From IMG/VR virus record IMGVR_UViG_3300045988_115788: DNA of 64,000 bases. One strand, given 5' to 3'. The translations under genes were made by a program, and so were the position numbers. The notes under the pieces were generated by a model that ran no database searches, was not told the origin of the DNA, and saw only the letters and a program-made list of their open reading frames with translations. This DNA comes from a virus. Shown here piece after piece: positions 1,694-63,849 of the stretch (the stretch's first letter is position 1; every line of letters begins with the position of its first letter).

Positions 1694-1720
1694 TTAAAAA
1701 TAAGTTATAAAAAGTTGTAA

Positions 1721-2338: not shown

Positions 2339-2510
2339 CATAACACTTTCAAGTTATTACAGATATGTACTGATATGTTAGTCAGGAATTTACGCCTATG
2401 GAGAGCACAAGAACTTGTGAGTAGTGATTGGCTTGTCAACACAAAAACATACTCGTTGAAGTAGGAATGGAACATAAAAGTTTATAACTTTTTATAAGTT
2501 TTCAGTAACG
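2339..2510 (+). ncRNA. possible remnant TnpB omega/reRNA scaffold and right end
   Basis: About 170-nt non-coding tail directly 3' of the truncated tnpB, where TnpB guide-RNA scaffolds are encoded. It shares only short blocks with the 3' flank of the intact tnpB. Unverified. Confidence 0.25.
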
Positions 2511-2518
2511 GATGAAGA

Positions 2519-5500: not shown

Positions 5501-6403
5501 CCACAAAAAACAAAGCTTACAACATCTAATTTGCCTGAAATGATTAAAATTGGTGTTGAAATTCCAGAAGAACTTATCAAACCTTATAATTTTAAAAAGT
5601 ATGTTTGTCAAAAGCAATTCTTTTACAGTGTACATCCTTTGTCTAAATCTAAAAAATTATATAAAGTAGATACTACTGTAATGTCATATTGTGAGGAATA
5701 CTTTATTTCCGTAATGAAAGAAGGGGCAGATTATTGGTTTGTTGATAGCGAGGTCGTTATTTGCGACAAATCTATTGATAAATGCTTTAAGCCTGTTTTT
5801 AATGAGTTAAAGTCTTGGCTACAAAGACCTGAAACAATTAAAGAATATAACAAAAAAGCTATTATTGCCGCGTACAACACACTAGATTGTGTAGATGTCG
5901 ATAGATGGGCAATGCAATCTACGAGTTATTACCATAACAACGGACATGAATTAAAGAATTTAGATTTTAAGCGTTACGGCATTAGTAGATTTTCCGACCT
6001 TCCAGAAGAACCAGTATTTGTTGAAAAAAACTTTGGACAGCGTTCTTGGCGGCAATACGAAATCAGCGCCATAGCTGGAACATTGATTGCTAAAGACGAT
6101 ACTAAGCATATAATTACTTTGCTAACTACTGATTATGATGTAGTAAACTGTAAGCTTACTAGAGAAGCCTATGCTCATTATAAACGAGTGATTAGTTCTG
6201 GTAGTGGGAAAGATAAAGTAGTGTATGATGATGCTTGGATTCAAAGAGGGTCTTTGCTGATTGTTTGTGGCTATCGAAACGGTGACGATTTTAGATGTAA
6301 AAAATACAAAAACAGTGTATATGACCATCAAATGATATTGATTAAACATGTATATGAAGATGGGAGTGCAGACTTGCAGACGGAAAGGGTGTTGATGGAA
6401 TAA
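2519..6403 (+). CDS. dnaE: DNA polymerase III alpha subunit (DnaE-type, PHP domain)
   Basis: 1294-aa ORF with N-terminal PHP motif LHNHSDYS, GPGRGSSSAF..AIDP palm motif and PDIDTD catalytic aspartates. Confidence 0.9.
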   Translation: MVDTYFSLHNHSDYSNPSLGFSDSICKVSGLIQRAYDIGLQGVTITDHESLSSFVEALNYYESMEQTRPFTLALGNEIYLLTEEEYEENRYNNGTIPYFHFILIAKDDEGYRQLCKLSTRAWERAYMKGCWRRPTLMEDLVEIIQPNQGHVFGLSACLGSRIDKMLLERNKALFEKTGHLTQIQQIFGKDNFYLEVQPSEIKGNEQSTVNTMLMKVAKQLKLPIVVSTDSHYLKKDDAIIHEVFLKSQDGEREVSDFYATAYMMEPSDLREHLRHEFNDEEIDFLMSNTVELGQRIGKYSFKHKPIIPEIPEEKIPDFKTQHTFKQYYSEYEYFGYYAKEDLDIHERYFFYQIEQGLKQKVVLKHKDVKTYVDRLNTEWRELKLISDELNGFMVAYYSTMSKIVDLMWEANSIVGPGRGSSSAFLTCYLLDITAIDPVPLGDYMPYWRHLSAERKAELPDIDTDSEPSKKYAIIEEVKKFFGEDKVLNVATFSSISSKIAIEKACRGLGIDDTTAAYLKSLIPINRGKIAKLKDCLYGSDKTPVVHALVEEMKKYPNLEKCALGLCDIISQKGLHAAGLTISNKPYTEYCSMMRAPNGTPCTCYNLWDAEEVSLVKFDLLTVDALQKVHGALDAMVNDGTIEWQGNLRDTYNKYIHPDVIDYDTPEMWDCINKMYSIFQWATPFSVAALKQIQPTTLSELSAGNSLIRLMPDGDGETPLDTYVRYKNHPEQWSVEASAYGLNEEEKSIIAKYTKDAHYLADCQEKIMRLSMDEHIAGYTLKESNQLRKSVAKKDEALQEKAKQQFYEYGKKQGTRQVMLDYVWNVLFSKSFGYSFSSIHSWAYSMIALQELNIFYHYGAIYWNIGCLLTETSDEGSGSGADYGKIAKAIYKMLAFGVNIVSPNVNESKDNFTPNAKENTIYYGLATISGINSQIANQIISMRPYNSFLDFYRKNTFPGSLVTKSKIIQLIKAGCFDCFNTNRIKVMQEYFCLSTPQKTKLTTSNLPEMIKIGVEIPEELIKPYNFKKYVCQKQFFYSVHPLSKSKKLYKVDTTVMSYCEEYFISVMKEGADYWFVDSEVVICDKSIDKCFKPVFNELKSWLQRPETIKEYNKKAIIAAYNTLDCVDVDRWAMQSTSYYHNNGHELKNLDFKRYGISRFSDLPEEPVFVEKNFGQRSWRQYEISAIAGTLIAKDDTKHIITLLTTDYDVVNCKLTREAYAHYKRVISSGSGKDKVVYDDAWIQRGSLLIVCGYRNGDDFRCKKYKNSVYDHQMILIKHVYEDGSADLQTERVLME

Positions 6404-30728: not shown

Positions 30729-32348
30729 TTAAGCAATTTCACCAGCATCAATATCGCCAACAGAAATAACACCTGCGGCAACAGTGATAGAAGTACCATC
30801 GGGCTTAACAGCACCAGCAACAGCAGTAGAAGCAACATCCATAGTAATTCCGTTAGTAGAATTTAGACTTAGACCGTTGCCAGCAACAACCTTGGTAGAA
30901 ACAACACGCTCATCAGAAATAGCAATGCCGTCACCAGCAGTATAAGCCTTTTCGGTAGCAACGAATAGACCATCAGTACCTAGAGATAGAGCATTACCAG
31001 AAGCGGCAGAGATAGCAACCTTTACGGTAGGAGCAGTAGCTTCACCGGCGACAGTAATAGACTTATCTGCGGCAGTTACGGAAGCAACCTTACCATCTGC
31101 GGCAGTCTGAACCTTTGCAATTTCTTCCTGGGCATACTTCTTAACACCGTAAACAGTAGCCTTATCGGCAGCATCAGCGGTAGTACCTAGAACAGCGGCA
31201 GCGGCACCAGCTTCATCAAAAGCGCTCTTGGGCTGATAAGCGGCAGTGTCTAGGCCCTTAACAGCAACGTCAGTACCTTCAACAGCGATAGTGCCATTAG
31301 TAGCACCAGTTGCAATGTCGCTATTCTGTAGGGCAGAATCAGCTAGACCTAGAGAAGCCTTAACACCAGCGGCAAGCTTTTCTAGGGTGATAGAACCATC
31401 GGTAATAGTGGCAGTAACCTTGTGGTCTTCAGAAACAGCAATAACGACCATATCATCTGCCTGAGAGCCAGAAGTAACATACTCAATTAGGTCAGCAACA
31501 TTGATATAAATCTTATCAGAAGTCTTGTTAGCAATGGTTAGCTCAATGTAAGTACCAGGGGTCTGACCTTCAGGATTGACAACAACCTTACCAGACTCAA
31601 CAACCATGTCTTTAGGAATGTTGATGGAGGCGCCAACATTAGCGCCATCCTTCTGTAGGTTATAGACTGCGGCAAAATCACCAGAATCTTCAGCCTTAAC
31701 AATGGTATAAGTAGAGGCGGCAGGAATGGTTACGGATAGACCGGCGGCACCAAGAGTTAGAGCATTGCCTACGGCAGGGTCTACCTTAACAGCAACAGTA
31801 GGTTCAGTGACAGAGCCACCAACAGTTACAGAAGTGTCGCCAGCCTTAACAGCATTTACAACTTCCTTCTTTAGATTTGCGGCGGCTTCAGTGGCGGCAC
31901 CAGCAACATCAAAGTATTCAACATCCTTTGCGGAAGCAGTGCCAAGGCCAGTAATCTTGGAAGCAGGAATGTCGAACTTTAGGTCTTCTAGGGCTAGGTC
32001 AGCACCTTCAGTGACGCGGCCCTTTGCATCAACAGTAACCTTACCATAAGTACCAGCAGTAACGCCAGAAGCGGCTAGTTCTAGTACAAGATTAACTGCG
32101 GCAGTGCCATCAAAATCTACGGCAGGAGCAGTAGCATCGCCAGAAATGGAGAAAGCACGAGCAACAGCTAGCTTTGCGGCTTGGTCAGCAGTGCCACCAT
32201 CGGGGTTAATGATTACATTACCAGCAGTAGTACCATTAGTACCAATGTATAGCTTGCCAGTGTCACGGGCAAAAGCAAATTCACCAGCCTTTAGAGCGGT
32301 TGCGAGTACAGCGGCGGATAGACCTCTTTTAATTTGAATAGTCTGCAT
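30729..32348 (-). CDS. Ala/Gly/Thr/Val-rich tail fibre protein
   Basis: ATG 32348 gives MQTIQIKRGLSAAV..GEFAFARDTGKLYIGTNG (Mtd_N-like). Contains AGTYGKVTVDAKGRVTEG, a phage tail-fibre repeat-like motif. The gene is markedly GC-richer than its flanks. Confidence 0.7.
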   Translation of the reverse strand: MQTIQIKRGLSAAVLATALKAGEFAFARDTGKLYIGTNGTTAGNVIINPDGGTADQAAKLAVARAFSISGDATAPAVDFDGTAAVNLVLELAASGVTAGTYGKVTVDAKGRVTEGADLALEDLKFDIPASKITGLGTASAKDVEYFDVAGAATEAAANLKKEVVNAVKAGDTSVTVGGSVTEPTVAVKVDPAVGNALTLGAAGLSVTIPAASTYTIVKAEDSGDFAAVYNLQKDGANVGASINIPKDMVVESGKVVVNPEGQTPGTYIELTIANKTSDKIYINVADLIEYVTSGSQADDMVVIAVSEDHKVTATITDGSITLEKLAAGVKASLGLADSALQNSDIATGATNGTIAVEGTDVAVKGLDTAAYQPKSAFDEAGAAAAVLGTTADAADKATVYGVKKYAQEEIAKVQTAADGKVASVTAADKSITVAGEATAPTVKVAISAASGNALSLGTDGLFVATEKAYTAGDGIAISDERVVSTKVVAGNGLSLNSTNGITMDVASTAVAGAVKPDGTSITVAAGVISVGDIDAGEIA

Positions 32349-32427
32349 AATATCAAACTCTTTTATAAAAATATTTTTATAATTAGCTTTAAGTGAAATC
32401 TTAATCACAAAAAGCTATTTTTTAATT

Positions 32428-32628
32428 TTAAACAATCTCACCAGCATCTAGTTCAATGTTTTGGTGAGCTTTTTTATCATCATTGTGTTTATTTATAGCC
32501 ACGACAATACTGCCGCCACCACCAGAATCAATAGAATTTAATACTGGTTGACCATATCTGTTTTTAGTAATATAAAATTGCTCACTGTTCAAGAAAAAGT
32601 TACCGCCAGGAGCTTTTACTTCGGCCAT
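32428..32628 (-). CDS. small fibre-associated protein, paralog of 29202-29477
   Basis: ATG 32628 follows AAAGGTGG. Ends in ELDAGEIV. Confidence 0.5.
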   Translation of the reverse strand: MAEVKAPGGNFFLNSEQFYITKNRYGQPVLNSIDSGGGGSIVVAINKHNDDKKAHQNIELDAGEIV

Positions 32629-32718
32629 TAAAACGACCACCTTTCTTAACTCTGTACAAAGTTTTTATAGATTCTATATAAACTTAGCAAGCGGTACCTC
32701 TCGCCAAGATAATTTTCT

Positions 32719-33030
32719 TTATTCTTCTGGCGCATTTACTTTTTTAGACATAGAGCATAGGTCATCAATTAGTTTAGACACTGCCTCCATGTCAATATCA
32801 TAATTAACTTCATTAGCAGAAGCCTTAATCATAGCAAGAACATACTGTTTCTTTTCTGCACCAGATTCGTATTGCTTTTCGGCCTCTTCCATGTATTTCA
32901 TCACAAGATTCAGCACAATAGACCAATTCTTTTCTTTTACTGCTTTCTGAATATATCTTACAAGAGCAATAATAAGAGGAATAGTCGTTGCAATGCCGCT
33001 AAGAATAGAAATTACAATGTTAATATCCAT
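32719..33030 (-). CDS. holin-like membrane protein
   Basis: N-terminal TM segment (INIVISILSGIATTIPLIIALV) and a charged C-terminus. Lies adjacent to the amidase. Confidence 0.45.
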   Translation of the reverse strand: MDINIVISILSGIATTIPLIIALVRYIQKAVKEKNWSIVLNLVMKYMEEAEKQYESGAEKKQYVLAMIKASANEVNYDIDMEAVSKLIDDLCSMSKKVNAPEE

Positions 33031-33044
33031 ATATATTACCTCTT

Positions 33045-33374
33045 TTAAATAGTAGGTTCATTATAATCATTTATTTTAAACTCATTTGCTTTAGCTAAAG
33101 CATAAGAAATGCCATCGCCGTCTGCGCTTGTATTTTCATCTCTGTTTTTATCTACAATACGACTTAAAACAATACTACAAGCAGTTCCAATAGGTGTAAA
33201 TACAATAGTCCAACAATAAAGGCTACCCGTATAATCCATACCAATACACTTAATAGCTAAATAAAAGCCGCCAGCTAAACCAAATGCTAAAAATAAAAGA
33301 ATATAAACAGCTAGTCGATTTGTAAACCCTAACCGCTTAAAATGATTTCTTATTCTATGTTTTCTTTTAGCCAA
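33045..33374 (-). CDS. holin-like membrane protein (2 TM)
   Basis: Two hydrophobic segments. Lies immediately downstream of the amidase. Confidence 0.5.
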   Translation of the reverse strand: MAKRKHRIRNHFKRLGFTNRLAVYILLFLAFGLAGGFYLAIKCIGMDYTGSLYCWTIVFTPIGTACSIVLSRIVDKNRDENTSADGDGISYALAKANEFKINDYNEPTI

Positions 33375-33375
33375 C

Positions 33376-34170
33376 TTAAATCAGCCCTTTTCTCCCCATA
33401 ACCGCAATAAATTCATCACGCTTTAAGAATCCTTCAGGCGCTTCACCATTAACTAGCTTCTGTTGAGTTGCTTTATTCCAATGCCCTTCTTGCTTAGACC
33501 AATCAGGTTCAGGCTTAGAAGCAACGTATTGAGAAGCCTTTTGTAACAGTGTATATGCCTGTTCAGGAGTCATTTCTTTAATGAAAGTATTTATATCCAT
33601 GTCTTCTTCAACCTCCTCTACGGGCTTTGTAGTGGCCTGTAAACGCTTATTTACTTCTGCCGCAATCTCACCATATTTACTGAACAAATAATTACCAGGA
33701 CAAGACTTGTCTGGCCTAGTGTATCTATGTGGCACCATATTGCATGCCGCCCAATTACCTGTAAAAGCTGGACAATATTGCTTTCCTTCTTTCCAAATAA
33801 GCTTCTTGATGCCATTACGTTTACAAATATCCACACATAAATTGATTAGAGCAACGTATGCTTTTTTAGTACATTCATAAGGTTCTTTATAACTTTGAAT
33901 ACTAGATACTTCAATAGTAACTACTTCATGGTCTACTTTATGGCTTGTACACCAAGCACGATTTTCTTCAAGAACATATTGACCAATTCTACCATCTGGC
34001 CCAATACCATAATGAGAAGAAGCTTTTCTTTGTTGAAAAACTTGTCCACAACCTTCAACAGAACCAGGCCCCGCCATAGTATGAATACTGATGCCCTTAA
34101 TCCGGCCTTGTCTAGGCTTTGTACAATGAGGTGATAGTTTAGTATAATTTACTAATTTACTTTGAGACAT
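33376..34170 (-). CDS. N-acetylmuramoyl-L-alanine amidase (endolysin, Amidase_2/PGRP type)
   Basis: GISIHTMAG...SSHYGIGPDGRIGQYVLEENRAWC...VVTIEVS motif pattern. ATG 34170 preferred (MSQSKLVNY). Confidence 0.7.
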   Translation of the reverse strand: MSQSKLVNYTKLSPHCTKPRQGRIKGISIHTMAGPGSVEGCGQVFQQRKASSHYGIGPDGRIGQYVLEENRAWCTSHKVDHEVVTIEVSSIQSYKEPYECTKKAYVALINLCVDICKRNGIKKLIWKEGKQYCPAFTGNWAACNMVPHRYTRPDKSCPGNYLFSKYGEIAAEVNKRLQATTKPVEEVEEDMDINTFIKEMTPEQAYTLLQKASQYVASKPEPDWSKQEGHWNKATQQKLVNGEAPEGFLKRDEFIAVMGRKGLI

Positions 34171-34840
34171 TAAAAGCACCATCCAACTTATTAACAATAT
34201 TATTCATTTGTTCTTGTGCGGCAGTAAGCATCTCATTCATTTTAGCCTTAAAAGTATCATTTAGTTCTTCGCCATATTGTACACCATACACCTTATTAGG
34301 TTCAGTATAAGTTTTCATTTGAGCTTTTAACATGTTGAAATAAGTGGTATGATAAGTAACGTGTGTCTTATAAGCCATATATAGTTCAGTAATAGATTTT
34401 GCATCCATTACAGCACATTCTTCACCATCTGCATGATAAGGGAAAGAATTTGCACCAAGAACAATGGAATTAAACATAGAATCAATATTAGTTTGGTCGG
34501 CGGCAGTTAGAGAATAATGCTTGCCATTATAATCAATACCATCAATAATAGTTTTATTGCAAATGGCAGAAAGTTCAACACATTTCTTATCCATTGCTTC
34601 ACCCAAATAGTCAAATTTAGGCAGTTGTTTAAGAGTTTCTTCATCTACTTCTCGAATTTCTACACTTTCAGGACAGCCAATTCCGTTAGTACCTAAAATA
34701 TTATAAGCAACAGACATAAACGCAACGCCCTTTGGATTGCTGGATTTATCTTGCCCATAACATCCATTGTCTTGTAGCTTAATATAATTTAGTTCATCAG
34801 TAGTACCTATTACCAAATTATTTCGGATAATTGCATACAT
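34157..34840 (-). CDS. DUF4376-like fibre partner protein (possible fibre chaperone), paralog of 38743-39363 and 41585-42181
   Basis: Shared block ...GKHYSLTAADQTNIDSMFNSIVLGANSFPYHADGEECAVMDAKSI..Y..THVTYHTTYFN. Confidence 0.55.
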   Translation of the reverse strand: MYAIIRNNLVIGTTDELNYIKLQDNGCYGQDKSSNPKGVAFMSVAYNILGTNGIGCPESVEIREVDEETLKQLPKFDYLGEAMDKKCVELSAICNKTIIDGIDYNGKHYSLTAADQTNIDSMFNSIVLGANSFPYHADGEECAVMDAKSITELYMAYKTHVTYHTTYFNMLKAQMKTYTEPNKVYGVQYGEELNDTFKAKMNEMLTAAQEQMNNIVNKLDGAFNVSK

Positions 34841-34862
34841 TAAATAAACCAGTCCTTTCCGA

Positions 34863-35300
34863 TTAAATTTTTTGACAAATTGTCAAAATACGTTCTAGTT
34901 CTTCGATAGGTGCTTCATAAAAATCTTTACTCCACACCCAAAAGTCACTATGTTCTGCGCGGCGATATTTAGTTAAAGATTCATCTTCCCATAGTAAATT
35001 CCAACGCTCTTGATGCTTCTTTTGATTAAAGGCCCTGTCTTTGTTAAGACGTTTTAGAATCTTGTCAATTAGTTCGCCACGAAGAAGTCCTTTGTTGTCG
35101 TTATTGATTGCAAAATAATCATAAGCATTTTGAGATGTATTGTAACATAGCGGCCCATTTTCGTTTGAAATAAGACCATTAGTTTCTGTACAAAGCGTTG
35201 CATAAGGCAGATTAACCATGCCTTGAAGTGCTTTTTGATTAAATCTCTTTTTTACAATATAATTATTTTTCATTTTATTCCTTTCTAATTTGCGGCTCAT
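34863..35300 (-). CDS. hypothetical protein immediately downstream of the DGR RT
   Basis: 145-aa ORF overlapping the RT stop by 26 nt (alternative ATG at 35273). No recognisable motif. Confidence 0.45.
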   Translation of the reverse strand: MSRKLERNKMKNNYIVKKRFNQKALQGMVNLPYATLCTETNGLISNENGPLCYNTSQNAYDYFAINNDNKGLLRGELIDKILKRLNKDRAFNQKKHQERWNLLWEDESLTKYRRAEHSDFWVWSKDFYEAPIEELERILTICQKI

Positions 35301-36681
35301 TTAAAATATCGTGTATTTTATCAAAGATGTCCATAGGCTTAGATTTCATTTTAGCAAGATAATCTTTTCGTTCGCAAAGAGGTATGAATCCATTATACAT
35401 CATCGACTCAATTTTCTTTGATTGAAGGTCAAGAAAAATCTTTAATTGTTTTTTAGAACAATAATAGACCCAACCACAATAATCATTCCAAACATATTTG
35501 ATATAACATTTAAAAGGTTTATTTTGTTGACTCAAATATTGAATGAAAGTAGATACAAACTTTTTATCCATATTATATATGGTTCGATAGCAACCAAAAT
35601 GTTTTGCATAGCCTCTCCAACATTGGTATGTTACACAAATATCATCTATTGACATTTTTCCCTCGTCAGCCCATTTCTTGAAAATTTTTAATTTTCTTCT
35701 AATTCTTTTAAGACTATCTTTATTCAATTTTGTTACGATTTTTCCACTATCTGTCAAAGTAAATCTAATTTTCAAAAAAGTAAAACTATGGTGCTTAAAA
35801 GGAGTTATGCGATTTTTCTTTTCGTTTATTTTTATGCCAACAGAATTGGCTAATATTTCAACAAAATTTTTTATCTCTTTTAGTTCTTCAAAAGAATTGC
35901 TGATTACATAACCATCATCCATATATCTGCCATAACCTTTTATGCGAAAAACATCTTTAATGTAATGGTCTATAAGATTAGCATAATCTAAAGCAATATT
36001 TTGTGATATTGGACTGCCTAATCCAACTCCAAATGGCCCCTTAGAATCATGTAAAGTAAGAAATTCATCAATAAATTTATCTCCAAGAACAATCAACTGT
36101 CTATCTTTTATATATTTTCTTAATTCCATTTTTGCACCTTCATGCGGAATTGAAGCAAAATATTTAGAAAAATCATATTGATAAATGCCTCCTTTATAAC
36201 CATACTTTCTATAATGATGCCGCAGTTGCTTTTTTAGCATCTGTATGGCAAAGTGGATACCTTTATTTTTCAACGAAGCTGAATTAGTTGAAACAAAACT
36301 TTTAGAATAAGCTTCTGTCATTATTTCGTTGCAAAAACACTTTTGAACCGCTCTATCTTCAATATTCAAAGCATGTATGTCTCTTATTTTTCCATGCTCA
36401 TTTGTTTTAAAGAAGCAAAAGCCATGAAATTTATAGGCATTAGCATCCATCTTTTTCTTTAATTCAAAAGACCTTATTAACAATTCATTTTCAAAATTTT
36501 GTACTGAAGTTTTCCATCTAACTCCTTTACAACATTCTTTTGATGCTCTATATAAATTTTCAAAAGAATAAACTTCATCATAACTTTTATTTACTATATT
36601 TCTTTTCTTTAAATCTCTTTTTGCTTTACGCCTTAAATATCTTTTCTCATGGCGCTCTTTACTTGTCAGAATTTTCACCAC
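35275..36681 (-). CDS. DGR reverse transcriptase
   Basis: 468 aa. RT motifs YQYDFSKYFASIPH (A), GVGLGSPISQNIA (the [I/L]GxxxSQ hallmark of DGR RTs) and GRYMDDGYVIS (YxDD). Lies adjacent to the TR and avd. Confidence 0.9.
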   Translation of the reverse strand: MVKILTSKERHEKRYLRRKAKRDLKKRNIVNKSYDEVYSFENLYRASKECCKGVRWKTSVQNFENELLIRSFELKKKMDANAYKFHGFCFFKTNEHGKIRDIHALNIEDRAVQKCFCNEIMTEAYSKSFVSTNSASLKNKGIHFAIQMLKKQLRHHYRKYGYKGGIYQYDFSKYFASIPHEGAKMELRKYIKDRQLIVLGDKFIDEFLTLHDSKGPFGVGLGSPISQNIALDYANLIDHYIKDVFRIKGYGRYMDDGYVISNSFEELKEIKNFVEILANSVGIKINEKKNRITPFKHHSFTFLKIRFTLTDSGKIVTKLNKDSLKRIRRKLKIFKKWADEGKMSIDDICVTYQCWRGYAKHFGCYRTIYNMDKKFVSTFIQYLSQQNKPFKCYIKYVWNDYCGWVYYCSKKQLKIFLDLQSKKIESMMYNGFIPLCERKDYLAKMKSKPMDIFDKIHDILNEPQIRKE

Positions 36682-36971
36682 TTTTTATTTTAATTTTTTC
36701 GTATAATTTTTAGTTTTGTTAAAAACTAAGATAATTTGCTAATTACATAACTGGTACCTATGAAATTTGTCTAAAATTATCAAACAACAAACCATGCAAG
36801 AAGCGTCCAGGACACAGTATCGAAAAAATAATTTAGGATGCCAAAGCAGAGCCAAGGATATTTCCCCCTTCTATGAAAAGATTATTTTCACCTAGCAAAA
36901 ACTAGGTTACTTCTCAATCCCAGTAGCCATCTATAACCAAAAAATGGCGGCTACTATTGGCATAGAATCAG

Positions 36972-55766: not shown

Positions 55767-56146
55767 CATTATTAACTAAATTAAATGTTTTTCAACATTT
55801 CTAGTTTCTGACTATATCTTCACTATTTCGTTAAATAGTGTCAGTGCGCTTCGGATTGCTCCTACTCTACTCGCTTCGTCCGCTTATGCGTCTTATTCTG
55901 CCCATACTATAACACAGACAGTTACATTTATCAAGAATTTTTTCTTGATTGCTTTCGATAGTCGATGAAGGTTATACCGTATTTCAACGGCATCTTCCCT
56001 GCGGATTAACCATATATTTTTATCTCTTTTACAATCTCTTAGTTAATTACTCTAAGCCCCTATCTATGTTACCATGATAAGTTTGTGTATAAAACTTTAG
56101 GTTGTCCCCGTCAATTCACACTGAACAGGCGCTAACTTTAGAGTCC
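55767..56146 (-). mobile_element. group I intron (ORF-less) in the tape measure gene
   Basis: 380 nt lie between ..FLNVQAG and ANQSQNL... The 5' exon GCAGGU pairs with guide GCCUGU (+ 56125-56130), giving a U.G pair. Q AAUCCGCAGG (+ 55998-56009), R-like CACUGACACUAU (+ 55836-55847) and S AAGAUAUAGUC (+ 55810-55820) are present. Ends in G. Confidence 0.8.
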
Positions 56147-56704: not shown

Positions 56705-57787
56705 CTATCTATTAAGCAGTGTCGTTAATACTGCTCAGAGTAAAAAGACAATATTTTTTCTTTGAATGTACCATCATCTATTTGCCAATAAGGTATTCTT
56801 AATAAAGGTACATGATGAGTTTTGCAATAATAATCTTTAATTTTATCATTTTTTTGAGTTTCTTTAAAATATTCTTGGAAATGCCTTCCTCCATCAACTT
56901 CTATTAACTTTTTGTTTTCTTTATTGAAATTCAAGCAAAAATCAAAAGGAAGACATCTTTTATTGCCCCTACAATCAGTTATTTTAAATTCTCGTTTAAA
57001 AGGAATATTTTGTTCATTTAAAAAATCAGCGACTATTTTTTTCAAACTGCTTAATTTTCTATGTCCAGAAGCATCATAATCACCTGTATTCAATGCTCTA
57101 AATTTTTCAATATCTCGCAAAAAATTATTTCTACAAACAAAATATTGCACACCAAAATCGTCTTCTATTAAAATATTAGTTTTATTAAAAGTCGGTTTAT
57201 TATATCCTTTTATTTTTCTTGGTTTTATATCTTTAATAGGGGTTATTACTTTAAAGCCTTCTTTTTCAAAATCTTCTATGATTTTTTCTAAATCAAGCCT
57301 ACGCTCTTTCCAACTAGCGGAATGGGCGCATTTTGTACAAAGTCCTGGGAAAACTTGCCGTTTTAAAGTATCCCACTTTACATCGTAACGAGAATTACAT
57401 TCTCTACAAAAAACACTCACGACAATTCTTGCTTTTCCTGATTTTTTTATATTTCTAAAAGAAATCAAATGAATTTTATTATCATCACAAAACTTATAAA
57501 TTTCTTGTTTTGTTTTTTCTTGCATTTTTTACTCCTTCTTATACTCTCGCATAAGTTTAGACTATATCTTCATCCTAAAAAAGGATGTGGGGCACTTCAA
57601 GTTCACTTGAACCTTACAGATATTATTTCAATCTTAGTCGTTGAACCATATTTTTAAATCAATAAAAACTGGATGCTGATTTGCCAATTCTTAGCGTTGT
57701 TACTCTTTGGTAGCTAAGACTCTAAGGTTTGTTTCAGCAATTCACCCCATTCACTTACTTATATTACTATAAGCTCAACCAAATCAT
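56705..57787 (-). mobile_element. group I intron with endonuclease ORF in the tape measure gene
   Basis: Lies between ..SEMIDAAT and EFKKSG... Exon GCAACU pairs with guide GGUUG (+ 57776-57780). P-like GAAUUGCUGAAAC, Q-like AAUCAGCA, R GUUCAACGACUAAGA (+ 57632-57647) and S GAAGAUAUAGUC (+ 57560-57571) are present. The ORF lies 3' of the core. Ends in G (AUAG|GAA). Confidence 0.8.
56725..57525 (-). CDS. intron-encoded putative homing endonuclease (Zn-ribbon N-terminus, Vsr/DUF559-like PD-(D/E)XK C-terminus)
   Basis: 266 aa with CRECN..CTKC and, C-terminally, LPFDFCL...LIEVDGGRHF, which resembles the DUF559/Vsr-type nuclease core. Family assignment is tentative. Confidence 0.5.
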   Translation of the reverse strand: MQEKTKQEIYKFCDDNKIHLISFRNIKKSGKARIVVSVFCRECNSRYDVKWDTLKRQVFPGLCTKCAHSASWKERRLDLEKIIEDFEKEGFKVITPIKDIKPRKIKGYNKPTFNKTNILIEDDFGVQYFVCRNNFLRDIEKFRALNTGDYDASGHRKLSSLKKIVADFLNEQNIPFKREFKITDCRGNKRCLPFDFCLNFNKENKKLIEVDGGRHFQEYFKETQKNDKIKDYYCKTHHVPLLRIPYWQIDDGTFKEKILSFYSEQY

Positions 57788-58165: not shown

Positions 58166-58181
58166 AGAAACATCTCCCCTT

Positions 58182-58706
58182 TCAACTCTGGAAGCGTCTC
58201 TTTTTGATAGCCCCTACTCGCACCGCGCCAATCAGAATCGCTTCGGCTACATCATCTTGAGATTTTTTTGAGTTAGGCCCATTCCAGACAAGTTCAAGAT
58301 TAAATTTCTTATTTGCTAACTCTACAGCTTTTTGTTTAAGAACTTCTCTCTTTGTATCTTCTCGTCTTCCAGTAAATATTCCCAACTCGCTTCTCCATTG
58401 ATTCGGAAAATAATATTTCATACTCAATCCAAAAGAAGAAGCGAGTCCGAGAATATAACCCTGAACTGCTCCTAACATCATCAATGTTTTTGTCCCCTGC
58501 TTTTGCAAAGGAACATCTTCCATTACAAGTTCAGTAGGACTATATTTTTTTATAATTTCTGACAAGTATTGACCTTGCCAAACTAATCTTTCGTGCCATT
58601 CTAACTTACTAGGAGGTTGTAATGTAGTATAATACACAAGCTCTGTATTGTCAAATACCGCAACTCCTGTTGAAGTTGTACTGGCGTCTAAAGCAATTAT
58701 TTTCAT
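58182..58706 (-). CDS. ruvC: RuvC-like Holliday junction resolvase
   Basis: 174 aa. N-terminal IIALDASTTSTGVAVF (catalytic Asp), LVMEDVPLQ (Glu) and C-terminal SQDDVAEAILIG, typical of RuvC-fold resolvases. Confidence 0.6.
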   Translation of the reverse strand: MKIIALDASTTSTGVAVFDNTELVYYTTLQPPSKLEWHERLVWQGQYLSEIIKKYSPTELVMEDVPLQKQGTKTLMMLGAVQGYILGLASSFGLSMKYYFPNQWRSELGIFTGRREDTKREVLKQKAVELANKKFNLELVWNGPNSKKSQDDVAEAILIGAVRVGAIKKRRFQS

Positions 58707-58737
58707 TAATCTGTTTGGTGGAGACTCGTAACTTCAA

Positions 58738-60033
58738 TCATAGAGGAGCTAAATCATCTCTTGTATCCACCGTACACCTTTCAATTAAATAAGTTTTGTT
58801 TGTTTCTTTTAATTTTAATTTCTTAAAACTGACAGAGCCTTTGTTAACCTTTTGGCCATTTAAATTTCTAATATCAAAGAAACCTGATGCCCTTCTACCA
58901 AATATAAAATATTCGTAATTCTGATATTCTACTCTATCAAAGAGTCTAAAACCTTTGACTGTATACTCAGCTTGATTACGTTTTCGGATGCCACCTTTTA
59001 ACGTATTAGCTTTATATAGCTGACGATTATGACATCTGACCTTTTTATAGTAAAAATACTCTCCACTACTCTTAGCCTTTGGATTTCCACTAATACAACG
59101 TGCATCTAAATAATGTGTCTTTGGTAGATTGTTTTTTATACGAGTGTTTTTCGTAATATAACCATAAGTCATAGAAACATTTGCATAAATTTCCTTTAGC
59201 CGATTATAAAATACCCATCTCATAACATTCATAAAGGCCGCGTGTTTATAAGAGTTTGTTATTTTTGGCTCCCAACCCCAAAGCCTATTAGCTTCTTTTT
59301 TGTGATATTTACTATCATTGCAAGTGTTACAAAGTGTAATCAGACTTGAGGGTTTGTTTGTATGGTCGCCTTTCCAGTAGGCATGGTGGTGTGTTACAAG
59401 AATTGAATCTTTCGATTTACCTTTACACCATTGACAGGTATAATTATCTCGGTGGAAAATATATTCCCTGATATTCCAACCTGTAAGCTCACCTTTCTGA
59501 TAGTCCATCCCTTTTGGAATGGGTTCACCTTCCATTTGAGCTTTAAGCAGTTGCATATCAAACGATGCTGTTTCTACTACAATTTTTGTAATAGGCAACA
59601 TCTTGTGTACTTTTTCTACCATTGCAAAATGAGTCTGAATCTTATGTTCAATACTTGGAGTCAACCAACCTTTGTGTTTGCTGGATACTCGATTGTTAAA
59701 TCGTCTTTTTCTGTAACGGGTTTTACGATTTCGCCTTGAGTGACGAAATTTTCTTCGTGCCTCAAGTAATTTTGTTATATCGTTACGAAGTTCTACATCA
59801 GCTTCAAACAATACTTTATCTTTTGTAGTTGCAGATAATCCAATATGCTTAGAACCGGCATCTACACCTAATGTAATATTTTGTATGCAATTTGTTGTAT
59901 TATACAACAACTGTATCGTAAATGGACAACGCTTAATAACCTTGGCTTTGTTTATCTTTAAAAGCCTTCTTACCTTTCCGTGTCTGTTTGTTGGCATAAG
60001 TGGTTGTCCGTTTTTGTTAAGTACATATACCAT
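58738..60033 (-). CDS. iscB: IscB (OMEGA-family RNA-guided nuclease, Cas9 ancestor type)
   Basis: 431 aa from ATG 60033 (AAGGAG 9 nt upstream). PLMP motif NGQPLMPT, RuvC-I LGVDAGSKHIG, Arg-rich bridge helix RRKFRHSRRNRKTRYRKRRF, RuvC-II IVVETASFD, HNH HRDNYTCQWC...LITLCNTCN, and RuvC-III THYLDARC. Confidence 0.8.
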   Translation of the reverse strand: MVYVLNKNGQPLMPTNRHGKVRRLLKINKAKVIKRCPFTIQLLYNTTNCIQNITLGVDAGSKHIGLSATTKDKVLFEADVELRNDITKLLEARRKFRHSRRNRKTRYRKRRFNNRVSSKHKGWLTPSIEHKIQTHFAMVEKVHKMLPITKIVVETASFDMQLLKAQMEGEPIPKGMDYQKGELTGWNIREYIFHRDNYTCQWCKGKSKDSILVTHHHAYWKGDHTNKPSSLITLCNTCNDSKYHKKEANRLWGWEPKITNSYKHAAFMNVMRWVFYNRLKEIYANVSMTYGYITKNTRIKNNLPKTHYLDARCISGNPKAKSSGEYFYYKKVRCHNRQLYKANTLKGGIRKRNQAEYTVKGFRLFDRVEYQNYEYFIFGRRASGFFDIRNLNGQKVNKGSVSFKKLKLKETNKTYLIERCTVDTRDDLAPL

Positions 60034-60042
60034 AACAAACAC

Positions 60043-60310
60043 TCCTTTTCTTTAATAGTGATATGTTGTATGCTATAAGCCAGTACATATCAAACTGTAA
60101 GATACCTTCGCCTATGTTAATAAGAGGTTTTATATCGGCAACACTGTTCCTACCCATCAGAACTGTTTAACCACCGACCTTAGAGCAAAGGGCTAGGTAT
60201 AACACCCTTTGGTAACTATATATTCTCTTTTAACGTAGTGTTTGAAACACTTAGGCTAGTCAATAAAAGCTTTTGCAAGCCTGCGACTTTAGTCGTGGGT
60301 TATTGACTAT
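60043..60310 (-). ncRNA. candidate IscB omega-RNA
   Basis: About 265-nt ORF-free region directly 5' of iscB, the known location of IscB omega-RNAs. Hand-folded helices: TAGTCAATAA (60309-60300) pairs with TTATTGACTA (60266-60257), enclosing CGAC-UAAA-GUCG and GCUU-GCAA-AAGC hairpins. The ends are not determined. Confidence 0.55.
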
Positions 60311-60771
60311 ACTAAAGGCAAACCTGCTCCTCTTGCCGCAGAAGAAAACCAACCATCTAATTGTGACTCAATCATAGTTACCAACGGTTCCCAAGCGTCT
60401 CTTGCCGCTCTCCAATAGCCATCACCAAACAATGGGCCTGACTGTCCTTGATAGATAATGTCTGCCATATAAGATGCCGCAGAACCCCATTCAGGAGAAC
60501 CGTGACTATACTCGCCGTCATAAGAAATCGCACCTTCATCATATTTAAAAGTGGCACTAACGTCTCCGCTTCCGCCACCATCTTCTGATTTCCAAGCATT
60601 ATAAAATTGTTTAGTACGACTATAATACGAAGGACTTCCCGCAGAATATACATAAGATTCAATCATTTGTTTATTGGTTTCTTCTATTTTTTTCATAATA
60701 TCACTCACTGCTGTTTTCAGTGCTTTTAATGCTGCACTTCTAAGTGCCGCCTCCGATGTAAAAACAGGCAT
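60307..60771 (-). CDS. tail-module structural protein, unknown role
   Basis: 154-aa ORF whose ATG overlaps the upstream stop (TAATG). Confidence 0.45.
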   Translation of the reverse strand: MPVFTSEAALRSAALKALKTAVSDIMKKIEETNKQMIESYVYSAGSPSYYSRTKQFYNAWKSEDGGGSGDVSATFKYDEGAISYDGEYSHGSPEWGSAASYMADIIYQGQSGPLFGDGYWRAARDAWEPLVTMIESQLDGWFSSAARGAGLPLV

Positions 60772-61139: not shown

Positions 61140-61155
61140 CCTTTTAATCCTTTCA

Positions 61156-61557: not shown

Positions 61558-61569
61558 TATTAACCCTCC

Positions 61570-63024: not shown

Positions 63025-63849
63025 TTATTCAAATTTATTTAACATATTAGTATAGTTGTCACCCATAGATGTATTAGAAGAAGTTTTCACTTTTCCGTCT
63101 CCACCCATAGATTTGCTATAATCACCAACATCTGTGATATATCCCTCAAATTTATCTTTCTTTTTCGGGAATATCCAATGGTCAGCTTTTTCAGCTTGAC
63201 CCGAATGCAATATCAAGGCACGCGTTGTCAGAAATTCGACCTCTCCAACAACTTCACTAAATAAAGCATCAAAGCTTCTTAATGTCATTTCTAAAAGGTC
63301 TTTTTTTGGAACGCCTGTGTGAGCAGTAACTATTGCCATTCTTCGTTCTAAATTAGGCGGTTCCTTTCCTTTTGCCTTTAGTTTGTCCATGTCTTGCATT
63401 GCTTTTTTTAGGTCTGGGTTAATATATTCATCATCATATCTAGCATCATTTTGATACAAAATTATTCGCATAATTTCTTCAAAATGGTTTGGTTTAATGA
63501 CAATATCGCCATCTTGCAAATAAGGTTTCCCCTTATCATCTCTTTGTAATATAGGGTTTGTCATTCCTAGACATAATAACAATATAGTACCAAGACTTGT
63601 TGCATATATAGCGTCACTAGGAATTAACACATCACTAATGAATTGCAAATAACTCATTTGAATAATTTTAACATCATTTATTGAGTTCTTATCCATTTTT
63701 AGAATTGGTTCACTAGCGCTATATAATGCAGAATCAATTAACTTTACCGGCTTAATTTCTATAATCTTGTCCCCTGCTTTATAAGGAACAGCTTTATCAA
63801 AAGGAAAGTATGCAGTCTTTAATAAATCAATATTAACGCTCACAAGCAC
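63025..63849 (-). CDS. hypothetical structural-module protein
   Basis: 274-aa ORF with a GTG start at 63849. The start is uncertain. Confidence 0.4.
   Translation of the reverse strand: MLVSVNIDLLKTAYFPFDKAVPYKAGDKIIEIKPVKLIDSALYSASEPILKMDKNSINDVKIIQMSYLQFISDVLIPSDAIYATSLGTILLLCLGMTNPILQRDDKGKPYLQDGDIVIKPNHFEEIMRIILYQNDARYDDEYINPDLKKAMQDMDKLKAKGKEPPNLERRMAIVTAHTGVPKKDLLEMTLRSFDALFSEVVGEVEFLTTRALILHSGQAEKADHWIFPKKKDKFEGYITDVGDYSKSMGGDGKVKTSSNTSMGDNYTNMLNKFE

What the first reader, a model, noticed from the sequence alone, without database searches (positions are those of the whole stretch)
58738..60310. IscB nuclease with an upstream structured RNA region inside a phage tail operon
The 431-aa ORF carries the full IscB domain string: PLMP motif, split RuvC, Arg-rich bridge helix and an HNH insertion. 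It is preceded by an about 265-nt ORF-free region that folds by hand into nested helices, which is where IscB omega-RNAs are encoded. It sits between a tail-module gene (60307-60771) and the tape measure. No tnpA is present, and only 31 nt follow the stop before the next gene, so a recognisable right end is missing. If the IS200/605 logic holds, the guide would correspond to sequence at or overlapping the 3' end of the upstream tail gene (about 60310-60330). A phage-borne IscB in the structural module could act as a homing or anti-competitor nuclease rather than as part of a mobile IS.
Basis: partly seen in the sequence, partly recalled or inferred. Interest (0 to 1): 0.85.

Follow-up and report, generated by a model that had tools for sequence, protein, structure and literature searches.

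The report
RNA-guided IscB element in phage tail operon
A 1.6-kb selfish element encoding the RNA-guided nuclease IscB and its guide RNA sits between two genes of a gut phage's tail operon, and its guide matches exactly the uninterrupted site in sister phages that lack it, so it is an ordinary family member caught in a natural set-up for RNA-guided homing between phages.

Summary
ORF 58738..60033(-) is an intact IscB (NCBIfam guided_IscB 351 bits, cutoff 175). Region 60097..60307(-) is a full-length HEARO/omega-RNA (Rfam 152 bits, gathering 83).

Sister phage contigs with an empty site define the element to the base. It spans 58707..60307 (1601 nt), between the stop codon of a tail-module gene and the ATG of a RuvC-like gene that is ancestral to this phage group. 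The left boundary coincides with the first base of the RNA scaffold. The 16 nt of flank (60308..60323, GTTTGCCTTTAGTATA) are therefore the guide.

In three of the four empty alleles this sequence is intact and followed by ATGAA. ATGAA is the reverse complement of the TTCAT TAM measured for GstIscB, and here it is also the RuvC start codon. The fourth empty allele has a mismatch 2 nt from the TAM.

iscB is under purifying selection (dN/dS 0.06-0.13), and all catalytic residues are present. The claimed "missing" right end exists: a degenerate hairpin plus an 18-nt spacer.

The family is common in gut viral contigs (105 stretches carry its scaffold start) and prefers sites directly 5' of ATGAA start codons.

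Verdict: a new member of a known kind. It has the canonical OMEGA architecture and no TnpA. It probably persists or spreads by cutting empty alleles of co-infecting phages. That step is inferred, not shown.

The parts
60308..60323 (-). Predicted 16-nt guide of the omega-RNA (GTTTGCCTTTAGTATA). It is the last codons of the tail-module gene plus the first two bases of its stop codon, and it lies outside the element.
   Evidence: It lies directly 5' of the HEARO model start and directly outside the insertion boundary defined by the empty alleles L003, L004 and L033. Conservation among 16 related omega-RNAs begins exactly after it. It is unique in the window. The 16-nt length is an assumption taken from a reported effective guide of 13-16 nt (PMC13180657).
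60097..60307 (-). Omega-RNA scaffold (Rfam HEARO RF02033). Its first base, G at 60307, completes the TAG stop codon of the upstream gene.
   Evidence: It scores 152 bits against a gathering score of 83 and is full length, matching model positions 1-211. 31 of 48 consensus pairs show compensatory changes across 16 relatives. There are no SNPs against L005, whereas iscB has 12.
60034..60096 (-). Linker between the scaffold and iscB, holding the iscB ribosome-binding site AAGGAG at 60047..60042.
   Evidence: Read directly from the sequence. The family alignment starts at MVYVLNK, which supports the ATG at 60033 as the start codon.
58738..60033 (-). iscB coding sequence (431 aa plus stop), with all catalytic residues intact.
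   Evidence: NCBIfam guided_IscB 351.5 bits against a cutoff of 175. Pfam RRXRR 205 bits. PDB IscB matches. All invariant residues of the clade are retained. dN/dS is 0.064 against L008 and 0.125 against L005.
58707..58745 (-). Right end on the iscB strand, equivalent to the TnpA-defined left end. It consists of a degenerate subterminal hairpin at 58725..58745 (CTCTATGATTGAAGTTACGAG, overlapping the iscB stop codon) and an 18-nt spacer at 58707..58724 (TCTCCACCAAACAGATTA).
   Evidence: The boundary comes from the empty alleles. The end is homologous to the L008 end and to the family's canonical end, CCCACGACTGAAGTCGCGGG followed by a 17-nt spacer. The hairpin pairing was counted by hand.
58702..58706 (-). 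Predicted TAM, ATGAA. It consists of the start codon of the RuvC-like gene plus the next two bases, and it lies outside the element.
   Evidence: It follows the protospacer directly in the empty alleles. It is the reverse complement of the TTCAT TAM measured for GstIscB (PMC10055086). A second occupied/empty pair, L008 and L065, has the same motif. ATGAA occurs at 10-11 of 14 distinct family insertion sites.
58707..60307 (-). The whole inserted element, 1601 nt. The boundaries can shift by 2 nt because of a TA repeat.
   Evidence: The alignment of the window to L003, L004, L031, L032 and L033 breaks at 60308 and resumes at 58706-58708. The independent L008 copy is also 1601 nt.
60307..60771 (-). 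Upstream tail-module gene (154 aa). It supplies the guide and, presumably, the transcription of the omega-RNA.
   Evidence: ORF listing. Its homolog in Enterocloster phage PMBT24 lies in the same position, before the RuvC and tape-measure genes. No terminator-like site lies between it and the scaffold.
58182..58706 (-). RuvC-like Holliday-junction resolvase gene (174 aa). It is ancestral to the phage and not part of the element. Its ATG is part of the TAM.
   Evidence: PHROG 827/159 resolvase. PMBT24 has the order tail gene, 6 nt, RuvC endonuclease, tape measure. In the empty alleles its ATG overlaps the tail gene's TAA stop codon.

Best explanation
**What it is.** Window 58707..60307(-) is an intact, non-autonomous IS200/IS605-type (ISC) element. 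It consists only of an omega-RNA gene and iscB. It is inserted in the translational-coupling junction (GTATA|ATGAAA) between a tail-module gene and a RuvC-like gene of a roughly 100-120-kb gut phage.

**Proposed mechanism.**
1. Shown: the architecture, the boundaries, the intact protein and the intact RNA.
2. Inferred: read-through transcription of the tail operon produces an RNA whose 5' part is the last 16 nt of flank (GTTTGCCTTTAGTATA), fused to the scaffold.
3. Inferred: IscB, translated from its own RBS, binds this RNA.
4. Inferred from the family's biochemistry: the complex recognises the same 16 nt followed by the TAM ATGAA. That combination exists only in genomes without the insertion. 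In the occupied allele the guide is followed by GTCAA, so the element's own genome is spared.
5. Inferred: the complex cuts both strands of the target with its HNH and RuvC domains.
6. Inferred: during co-infection with, or superinfection of, a sister phage, the break is repaired from the IscB-bearing genome, which copies the element in (homing). If the break is not repaired, the competitor genome is lost.

**Origin.** The original insertion presumably needed a TnpA supplied in trans. The ends have the family's hairpin-spacer geometry, and the insertion lies exactly 3' of TTCAT on the TnpA strand.
For: **Identity**
- Protein.
- RNA.

**Boundaries and target**
- Four empty alleles in near-identical phages (L003, L004/L031, L032, L033) break exactly at the scaffold start.
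- Three of them keep a perfect protospacer followed by ATGAA.
- Flanks differ by only 0-9 bases per 100 nt within 500 nt of the site, so homology for repair is ample.

**TAM**
- GstIscB uses TTCAT, which is ATGAA on the iscB strand (PMC10055086).
- The second pair, L008 and L065, has the same motif and the same 1601-nt insert.
- ATGAA occurs at 10-11 of 14 distinct family sites.

**Self versus non-self**
- The occupied allele has GTCAA after the guide.

**Maintained function**
- dN/dS is 0.06-0.13.
- There are no SNPs in the omega-RNA against L005.

**Orientation**
- The element is co-oriented with the upstream gene, as required for IscB omega-RNA biogenesis (PMC10055086).
- No terminator lies between the tail gene and the scaffold.

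**Precedent**
- TnpB drives IS spread among plasmid copies without TnpA (10.1101/2025.02.20.638934).
- Homing into co-infecting phages has been proposed as theoretically possible (PMC13565253).
Against: - No expression, cleavage or transfer data exist for this element.
- Only one insertion lineage is seen at this site: the window and one IMG/VR contig, 99.2% identical. Element and flanks have diverged about equally. A single old insertion followed by vertical descent therefore explains the distribution without any homing.
- The 16-nt guide length and the TAM are inferred, not measured.
- The C-terminal roughly 90 aa (presumed TAM-interacting domain) do not align by sequence to solved IscBs.
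- The WIN/L008/L035 sub-clade has an unusual HNH loop, with Ser for the usual Asn and N for the last H.
- No promoter was identified.
- The host, and whether co-infection occurs, are unknown.
Confidence: 0.7

Rival explanations
1. The element is a passive IS passenger. A host-encoded TnpA transposed it into the phage. IscB serves only the classical 'restorative' role, re-cutting the donor joint after TnpA excision, and has no role between phage genomes.
For: - The IS200/IS605 end geometry is canonical and the insertion lies exactly 3' of TTCAT.
- The family has many different insertion sites, 14-16 distinct guides, which requires real transposition.
- Only one insertion lineage is seen at this site.
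Against: - No TnpA was found in the element, in the gap between the tandem copies examined, or next to any of the 13 relatives inspected.
- IscB is rarely linked to TnpA in general (PMC9755519).
- The TnpA-side hairpin of this copy is degraded relative to the family consensus, yet iscB and the RNA are conserved.
- Restorative homing needs a sister copy, and a replicating phage pool provides one. The two models therefore overlap rather than exclude each other.
Confidence: 0.18
2. The element is a domesticated anti-competitor weapon. The phage keeps IscB because cutting the empty allele destroys related phages (interference competition). Copying of the element is incidental.
For: - Strong purifying selection acts on iscB.
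- The target lies in a constrained junction, the stop of a tail gene and the start of the RuvC gene, which is hard for a competitor to mutate.
- Intron-encoded endonucleases are known to mediate phage interference competition (PMC11620839, listed).
Against: - Flanks of the occupied and empty alleles are nearly identical, so recombinational repair and conversion should be efficient.
- Four of six sampled genomes lack the element, so it is dispensable.
- Nothing distinguishes this copy from ordinary mobile family members.
Confidence: 0.09
3. The element is an inactive relic: a decaying insertion with no nuclease activity.
For: - The right-end hairpin is degraded, and the ORF is shortened by an earlier stop codon compared with L008.
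- The same window holds a clearly decayed TnpB remnant.
Against: - All catalytic and invariant residues are present.
- dN/dS is 0.06-0.13.
- The omega-RNA is full length at 152 bits and invariant against L005.
- The lost C-terminal tail is not conserved in the family.
Confidence: 0.03

Closest known systems
ISGst5-type IscB elements of Geobacillus stearothermophilus (Meers et al. 2023, PMC10055086)
   Same: - The omega-RNA scaffold sits at the transposon end upstream of iscB, with the guide supplied by the flank.
- The element is co-oriented with the upstream gene.
- The TAM is TTCAT on the TnpA strand, which is ATGAA on the iscB strand.
- The motif at the scaffold end (TTGAC here) differs from the TAM at two positions, which prevents self-cleavage.
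- The RNP targets the empty or donor-joint site.
   Different: - This element sits in a phage structural operon, not a bacterial chromosome.
- No cognate TnpA was identified.
- Its TnpA-side hairpin is degenerate.
- Activity is untested.
- Protein similarity to GstIscB was not measured here.
OgeuIscB-omega-RNA (PDB 7UTN, 7XHT)
   Same: - Same domain order: PLMP, RuvC-I, bridge helix, RuvC-II, HNH, RuvC-III. The alignment has E=4e-42, or 3.5e-70 with a profile.
- The guide RNA is HEARO-type.
- The TAM lies 3' of the target.
   Different: - This protein is 431 aa, against 496 aa for OgeuIscB.
- The C-terminal domain cannot be aligned by sequence.
- The HNH loop is a variant.
- The predicted TAM is ATGAA, against NWRGNA-type for OgeuIscB (PMC13180657).
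Free-standing and intron-encoded homing endonucleases of phages (T4 Seg/Mob, I-TevI-like)
   Same: - The gene is selfish and sits between conserved phage genes.
- It is predicted to cut the allele that lacks it in a co-infecting relative.
- It is polymorphic among near-identical phages.
- It neighbours two group I-like introns in the tape-measure gene, one with an HNH-type endonuclease ORF.
   Different: - Target recognition is by a 16-nt RNA guide plus a 5-nt motif, not by protein.
- Specificity is rewritten automatically at each new insertion site.
TnpB-driven IS605 gene drive in plasmids (Mears et al. 2025, 10.1101/2025.02.20.638934)
   Same: An OMEGA nuclease programmed by its insertion site cuts copies of the replicon that lack the insertion. 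The element spreads without TnpA.
   Different: - That system uses TnpB, not IscB, and plasmids, not phages.
- It was shown experimentally. Here the evidence is only comparative.

Membership tests
IscB (RNA-guided endonuclease, OMEGA class) | N-terminal PLMP domain | tested here: met
   P11-L12-M13-P14 lie within MVYVLNKNGQPLMPT. P11, M13 and P14 are invariant in the 13-sequence clade alignment. The region aligns to OgeuIscB residues 3-116.
IscB (RNA-guided endonuclease, OMEGA class) | Split RuvC nuclease with its catalytic acidic and His residues (motifs I, II and III) | tested here: met
   D58 (LGVDAG), E154 (VVETASF), and H307 and D310 (HYLDARC) are all invariant in the clade. They align to the corresponding OgeuIscB motifs. 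D58 matches the GstIscB D58 used as a dead mutant (PMC10055086).
IscB (RNA-guided endonuclease, OMEGA class) | Arg-rich bridge helix after RuvC-I | tested here: met
   Residues 93-115 (RRKFRHSRRNRKTRYRKRRFNNR) include the invariant R93, R97, R100, R101, R103, R106, R108, R111 and R115. Pfam RRXRR scores 205 bits.
IscB (RNA-guided endonuclease, OMEGA class) | HNH nuclease inserted within RuvC | tested here: met
   C200/C203/C235/C238 and H215/H216 are invariant. Pfam HNH alone is weak at 16.6 bits, below its cutoff. PHROG HNH families and the NCBIfam IscB model cover the region. The sub-clade has a variant loop (SSLITLCNTCN).
IscB (RNA-guided endonuclease, OMEGA class) | C-terminal TAM-interacting domain | tested here: inconclusive
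   Residues of about 340-431 are conserved within the clade, for example D366, G379 and G384. They do not align by sequence to solved IscBs, because the profile matches only positions 1-338. No structure was predicted.
IscB (RNA-guided endonuclease, OMEGA class) | Whole-protein score above the curated family threshold | tested here: met
   NCBIfam NF040563 (equivalog) scores 351.5 bits against a cutoff of 175.
IscB (RNA-guided endonuclease, OMEGA class) | Cognate omega-RNA (HEARO) encoded directly upstream on the same strand, with a variable 5' guide | tested here: met
   RF02033 scores 152 bits against a gathering score of 83 at 60097..60307. Covariation appears in 31 of 48 pairs. The 24 nt upstream are unconserved among 16 relatives.
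IscB (RNA-guided endonuclease, OMEGA class) | RNA-guided, TAM-dependent double-strand DNA cleavage | not testable with these tools
   This requires biochemistry or plasmid interference assays. Here there is only a predicted target (16 nt plus ATGAA) present in the empty alleles.
IS200/IS605 (ISC) insertion sequence | Insertion without target duplication, directly 3' of a short target motif (TAM) on the TnpA strand | tested here: met
   Comparison of empty and occupied alleles shows ...TTTTCAT|element|TATACTAAAGG on the + strand. There is no duplication beyond a 2-nt TA ambiguity. The L008/L065 pair shows the same.
IS200/IS605 (ISC) insertion sequence | Subterminal imperfect hairpins at both ends rather than terminal inverted repeats | tested here: met
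   The scaffold-side hairpin is CCCACGACTAAAGTCGCAGG. The far-end hairpin is canonical in the family (CCCACGACTGAAGTCGCGGG plus a 17-nt spacer) but degenerate in this copy (CTCTATGATTGAAGTTACGAG plus an 18-nt spacer). The pairing was judged by hand.
IS200/IS605 (ISC) insertion sequence | Y1 HUH transposase TnpA, in the element or in trans | tested here: not met
   The 1601-nt element has no room for one. None was found in the tandem-copy gap or beside the relatives inspected. The window as a whole was not scanned exhaustively for TnpA. The element is therefore filed as non-autonomous.
Phage homing endonuclease gene (functional class) | Presence/absence polymorphism among close relatives, with the cleavage site intact in the alleles that lack the gene | tested here: met
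   The window and L005 are occupied. L003, L004/L031 and L033 are empty with a perfect protospacer plus TAM. L032 is empty with a T>C change 2 nt from the TAM.
Phage homing endonuclease gene (functional class) | Super-Mendelian inheritance and co-conversion of flanks in mixed infection | not testable with these tools
   This needs phage crosses. The comparative data are compatible with a single insertion followed by vertical descent.

The most novel reading that the evidence does not exclude
This element would be a natural RNA-guided gene drive between phage genomes. It has lost dependence on a transposase and spreads or persists by cutting the empty allele of co-infecting sister phages.

Its family has specialised on the junction immediately 5' of ATGAA start codons:
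- The TAM is the start codon of the downstream gene.
- The guide is that gene's ribosome-binding region, or the end of the upstream gene.
- Transcription comes free from the host operon.
- Expression of the downstream gene is rescued by translational coupling to iscB. In L008, the iscB TGA overlaps the next gene's ATG.

The target would then lie in sequence the victim cannot easily mutate. The L032 allele (TAA>CAA, 2 nt from the TAM) would be a naturally occurring drive-resistant allele.
Probability: 0.4. Interest if true: 0.75.

Novelty: new member of a known kind. Interest (0 to 1): 0.55.

Why it matters
IscB and its omega-RNA are the presumed ancestors of Cas9 and are being engineered as compact genome editors. 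Their natural role is understood mainly as keeping a transposon in place after TnpA excision.

Spread by cutting homologous replicons has been shown only for TnpB on plasmids. For phages a 2026 review calls it theoretical.

This locus offers a concrete natural test case with these features:
- base-exact occupied and empty alleles in near-identical phages;
- a predicted guide and TAM;
- a candidate resistant allele;
- a neighbourhood full of other homing elements.

The start-codon-adjacent insertion rule, if general, would explain how such elements sit inside operons at low cost. It would also help in predicting guides and TAMs for uncharacterised IscBs.

If the element is only a vertically inherited passenger, the finding is routine annotation: many phage 'HNH endonucleases' are IscBs.

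Tried and rejected
- **Megablast of 57700-61600 against GenBank phages:** no match. Relatives had to be found by protein and pattern scans.
- **Promoter and terminator scan:** promoter-like sites were not enriched over shuffles (11 found against 10.2 expected). This says nothing about omega-RNA transcription.
- **RuvC-like gene as part of the element:** rejected. PMBT24 has the same tail gene, RuvC, tape-measure order without IscB, and the empty alleles keep the RuvC gene.
- **First estimate of insert size (1599 nt):** wrong. With the 2-nt TA overlap it is 1601 nt.
- **Generic hairpin-finding script:** it picked irrelevant stems and crashed. It was replaced by end-of-homology mapping between elements in different contexts and by the rule 'first ATGA after the stop codon' with a random-position control.
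- **Exact right-end motif of the window copy:** it recovered only the WIN and L008 lineages. The wider family has a different, better-paired end.
- **TnpA in the 530-nt gap of tandem copies:** none. The gap holds an unrelated 83-aa ORF, and the second copy is a solo omega-RNA.
- **Rfam group I intron model on the tape-measure spacers:** no hit at E<10. The intron call there rests on intron-less relatives and splice-site rules only.
- **Metagenome scan with the tail protein:** only 4 loci, too few for allele frequencies.
- **SNP distribution, window against L005:** the element and the flanks are equally diverged, so there is no sign of recent transfer.
- **Profile search for the C-terminal TAM-interacting domain in PDB sequences:** no alignment beyond profile position 338.
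- **Structure prediction and the large protein-database searches:** not run. The family assignment was already above curated thresholds.
- **Literature searches:** they found no report of phage-to-phage OMEGA homing or of start-codon-adjacent IscB insertion. This shows only that none is in the library searched.
Full report
**1. The observation**

The real start is the ATG at 60033, which has an AAGGAG ribosome-binding site 8 nt upstream. The family alignment begins at MVYVLNK, which agrees with that start.

The 431-aa protein scores 351.5 bits against the NCBIfam equivalog 'RNA-guided endonuclease IscB' (cutoff 175) and 205 bits against Pfam RRXRR. It aligns to the solved IscB structures 7UTN and 7XHT at E=4e-42, and at 3.5e-70 when a profile of 13 clade members is used.

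The following residues are present and invariant in the clade:
- PLMP: P11-L12-M13-P14
- RuvC-I: D58
- Arg-rich helix: residues 93-115
- RuvC-II: E154
- Four zinc cysteines: C200, C203, C235, C238
- HNH: H215/H216
- RuvC-III: H307/D310

D58 and the His pair correspond to the D58A/H209A/H210A dead mutant of GstIscB (PMC10055086).

The ORF-free region upstream is a full-length HEARO RNA (Rfam RF02033, the IscB omega-RNA) at 60097..60307(-). It scores 152 bits against a gathering score of 83. In an alignment with 15 relatives, 31 of 48 consensus base pairs show compensatory changes.

**2. Boundaries, guide and target**

The nearest cultured relatives of the flanking tail gene are roughly 100-kb Enterocloster phages. 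In phage PMBT24 the order is tail gene, 6 nt, RuvC endonuclease, intact tape measure. The RuvC-like gene at 58182..58706 is therefore ancestral. The omega-RNA and iscB are an insertion.

Scans of viral and metagenome contigs found near-identical phages:
- One contig (L005/L007/L156, all the same contig) is 99.2% identical to the window and is occupied.
- L003, L004 (the same contig as L031), L032 and L033 are empty.

The alignments of the empty alleles to the window stop at 60308 and resume at 58706-58708. At base level:
- Empty allele: ...GTTTGCCTTTAGTATA|ATGAAAATAATT...
- Occupied allele: ...GTTTGCCTTTAGTATA|GTCAATAACC...[1601 nt]...CAAACAGATTA|ATGAAAATAATT...

The left break coincides with the first position of the HEARO model. 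Homology between elements in different contexts also begins at that position. The 16 nt of flank at 60308..60323 are therefore the guide.

In the empty allele the tail gene's TAA stop overlaps the RuvC ATG. In the occupied allele the element's first G turns the stop into TAG, so the tail protein is unchanged.

**3. The TAM**

Meers et al. state that the IscB scaffold derives from the TnpA-defined right end, with the guide outside the boundary. They also state that GstIscB requires TTCAT, written on the TnpA strand (PMC10055086). On the iscB strand this is ATGAA, lying 3' of the target. That is exactly what follows the protospacer in the empty alleles.

In the occupied allele the guide is followed by GTCAA (TTGAC on the TnpA strand). 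It differs from the TAM at two positions, which is the arrangement Meers et al. describe for avoiding self-cleavage.

A second, independent occupied/empty pair was found by a designed pattern scan. L008 carries an 86%-identical copy, again exactly 1601 nt long. L065 has the empty site GGGAGGAAGAAGTAA|ATGAAAAGGTGG.

The guide is unique in the window. Two sites match it with 3 mismatches each, and neither is followed by ATGAA.

**4. Is the system maintained?**

- iscB evolves under purifying selection. dN/dS is 0.064 against L008, where dS is about 0.97, and 0.125 against L005.
- Between the window and L005 there are 12 SNPs in iscB and none in the omega-RNA or the guide.
It consists of a subterminal hairpin overlapping the iscB stop codon (58725..58745) and an 18-nt spacer (58707..58724).
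- In the wider family this end is CCCACGACTGAAGTCGCGGG followed by a 17-nt spacer, which mirrors the scaffold-side hairpin.
- In L008 that hairpin is weaker, and in the window it is weaker still, with several G-T pairs and a 1-nt deletion (pairing counted by hand).
- No TnpA was found in the element or beside the relatives inspected. This agrees with the report that few HEARO/IscB genes are linked to TnpA (PMC9755519).

**5. The family and its insertion-site preference**

The first 25 nt of the scaffold occur in 105 viral-contig stretches. These hold 117 copies, of which 51 are complete, with 14-16 distinct guides.

Of 14 distinct sites, 10-11 have ATGAA directly after the right end. In 9 of the 14, that ATG opens an ORF of at least 160 aa. 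In a control, only 28% of ATGA motifs found downstream of random positions in related loci opened an ORF of even 60 aa.

Several guides are plain ribosome-binding regions, for example TTGAGGAGGAAAAGCA and GCCAGGAGGAAAATCT. These elements therefore often sit between a gene's Shine-Dalgarno sequence, or the upstream stop codon, and its ATG, in the same orientation.

In L008 the iscB TGA overlaps the downstream ATG, which would restore translational coupling.

A broader set of 13 relatives from viral and bacterial contigs shows the same trend. ATGA lies within 75 nt of the stop codon in 11 of 13, against 36% in the control.

I did not find this rule described in the library searched.

**6. Mechanism**

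What is shown:
- the architecture;
- base-exact boundaries;
- an intact protein and RNA;
- target sites present in sister genomes;
- absence of the TAM in the element's own genome.

What is inferred from the biochemistry of the family:
1. Read-through of the tail operon produces the guide-scaffold RNA. IscB guides must be transcribed from outside the element, and Meers et al. found a strong same-orientation bias.
2. IscB binds this RNA.
3. The complex cuts genomes carrying GTTTGCCTTTAGTATA followed by ATGAA.
4. Recombinational repair from the occupied genome then copies the element in.

The flanks differ by only 0-9 bases per 100 nt within 500 nt of the site, so a repair template is available.

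L032 has a T>C change at the second position from the TAM. This converts the TAA stop to CAA, with a new TGA stop one codon later. A tested HEARO nuclease tolerated mismatches poorly through position 13 from the TAM (PMC9755519). L032 is therefore a plausible resistant allele.

**7. Evidence against active homing at this site**

Only one insertion lineage is seen. The element and its flanks have diverged to the same extent between the two occupied genomes. A single insertion followed by vertical descent explains the data. Nothing here measures expression or cleavage.

**8. Context that bears on plausibility**

The population is a mosaic of selfish elements:
- The tape-measure gene of the window is split by two intron-like insertions (57787..56705 and 56146..55767). 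One of them holds an endonuclease ORF.
- Relatives lack intron 1, or carry a 92%-identical copy of intron 2 at a different position.
- L005 and L003 carry an IStron inside a structural gene that is uninterrupted in the window. It consists of a group I intron (Rfam Intron_gpI, 73.6 bits) and a 366-aa TnpB.

All four combinations of the IscB element and the IStron occur: the window (+/-), L005 (+/+), L003 (-/+) and L004 (-/-). By flank identity the genomes relate as ((window, L005), L003), L004. On that tree the IscB element needs one gain. The IStron needs at least two events, or recombination between the sites. Exchange between these genomes therefore does happen.

**9. Comparison with what is known, and novelty**

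The element passes the sequence-testable defining features of IscB and of a non-autonomous IS200/IS605 (ISC) unit. The exceptions are the C-terminal TAM-interacting domain, which is inconclusive by sequence, and TnpA, which was not found.

Phage-borne IscB is not new:
- GenBank phages such as c-st, and phages of Ralstonia and Staphylococcus, carry homologs labelled 'HNH endonuclease'.
- PHROGs 119 and 2214 are such families.

Two points are worth keeping. The first is the natural, base-exact set-up for RNA-guided homing between phages. A 2026 review calls such homing theoretical (PMC13565253), and it has been shown only for TnpB on plasmids. The second is the start-codon-adjacent insertion rule.

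I classify the finding as a new member of a known kind, with moderate interest.

Noticed in passing
window 1719..2467 (+): This is a second OMEGA remnant. A 5'-truncated TnpB scores 72 bits on the Pfam Cas12f1-like TNB domain and also matches OrfB_IS605. Its frame opens after a TAA at about 1718 and begins at the RuvC-I motif GIDLGIK, with no N-terminal half and no good start codon. It is followed by a RAGATH-18 RNA at 2395..2467 (67.6 bits, gathering 44.9), which a 2026 review describes as the guide RNA of IS607-type TnpB. The remnant ends 51 nt upstream of the DNA polymerase III alpha gene (2519..6403).
   Followed up: partly
window 57787..56705 (-) and 56146..55767 (-): The tape-measure gene is split into three pieces by two intron-like insertions. 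Intron 1 (1083 nt) holds a 266-aa endonuclease ORF at 56725..57525 (PHROG HNH, homing and intron-encoded nuclease families). It is absent from L033 and L003, which read through the junction. Intron 2 (380 nt) has no ORF. Both insertions follow a U, end in a G, and share the motif GAAGATATAGTC. The Rfam group I model gave no hit at E<10.
   Followed up: partly
L003 7581..7911, compared with window 56122..55793: A 92%-identical copy of the window's intron 2 sits at a different position in the tape-measure gene of L003, after ...ATHIIDA. L033 has an intron at the window's intron-2 site, but with a 384-aa ORF. Intron content and position therefore vary among near-identical phages.
   Followed up: partly
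L005 1207..3081 and L003 (same place), corresponding to window ~63686-63690: This is an IStron: a group I intron (Rfam Intron_gpI, 73.6 bits, gathering 50, at L005 1256..1586) followed by a full-length 366-aa TnpB (1879..2979). It is inserted inside the coding sequence of the homolog of window gene 63025..63849. It is absent from the window, L004 and L033. Together with the IscB element, all four presence/absence combinations occur among these phages.
   Followed up: partly
window 30729..36924 (-): This region looks like a diversity-generating retroelement. It holds a reverse transcriptase ORF at 35275..36681 (Pfam RVT_1), an RT-2 RNA at 36674..36924 (93 bits, gathering 40), and a 559-aa protein with a weak match (below Pfam's cutoff) to the Mtd (major tropism determinant) N-terminal domain at 30729..32408. 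Template and variable repeats were not searched for.
   Followed up: no
L032 3948..3972 (NFYZ01004837.1): This is an empty-site allele with a T>C change 2 nt from the TAM (GTTTGCCTTTAGTACA|ATGAAA). The change turns the tail gene's TAA stop into CAA, with a new TGA stop one codon later. SNP density is locally raised, with 4 and 8 differences in the 100 nt on either side of the site. It is a possible nuclease-resistant allele.
   Followed up: partly
L071 (reverse strand) 8499 and 10630, and about ten other viral contigs: Two exact matches to the scaffold start lie about 2131 nt apart in many contigs. In L071 the first belongs to a complete IscB element. The second is a solo omega-RNA start with no iscB behind it. 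The gap holds an unrelated 83-aa ORF and no TnpA.
   Followed up: partly
L009 2988..3945 and 8763..8837: In a 132-kb viral contig, a ROOL RNA (304 bits) and a tRNA lie immediately upstream of the HEARO-IscB unit. A RAGATH-18 RNA lies about 5 kb downstream.
   Followed up: no
window 58182..58706 (-): A RuvC-like Holliday-junction resolvase gene sits inside the tail module, directly before the tape-measure gene. The position is conserved in Enterocloster phage PMBT24. This is an unusual place for a recombination gene. In the empty alleles it is translationally coupled (TAATG) to the tail gene.
   Followed up: partly
window 58738..60033 (-), residues 215-245 of IscB: The window, L008 and L035 form a sub-clade that shares a variant HNH loop (HHHAYWKGDHTNKPSSLITLCNTCNDSKYH). 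Ser replaces the usual Asn, and N replaces the last metal-binding His of the other clade members.
   Followed up: no
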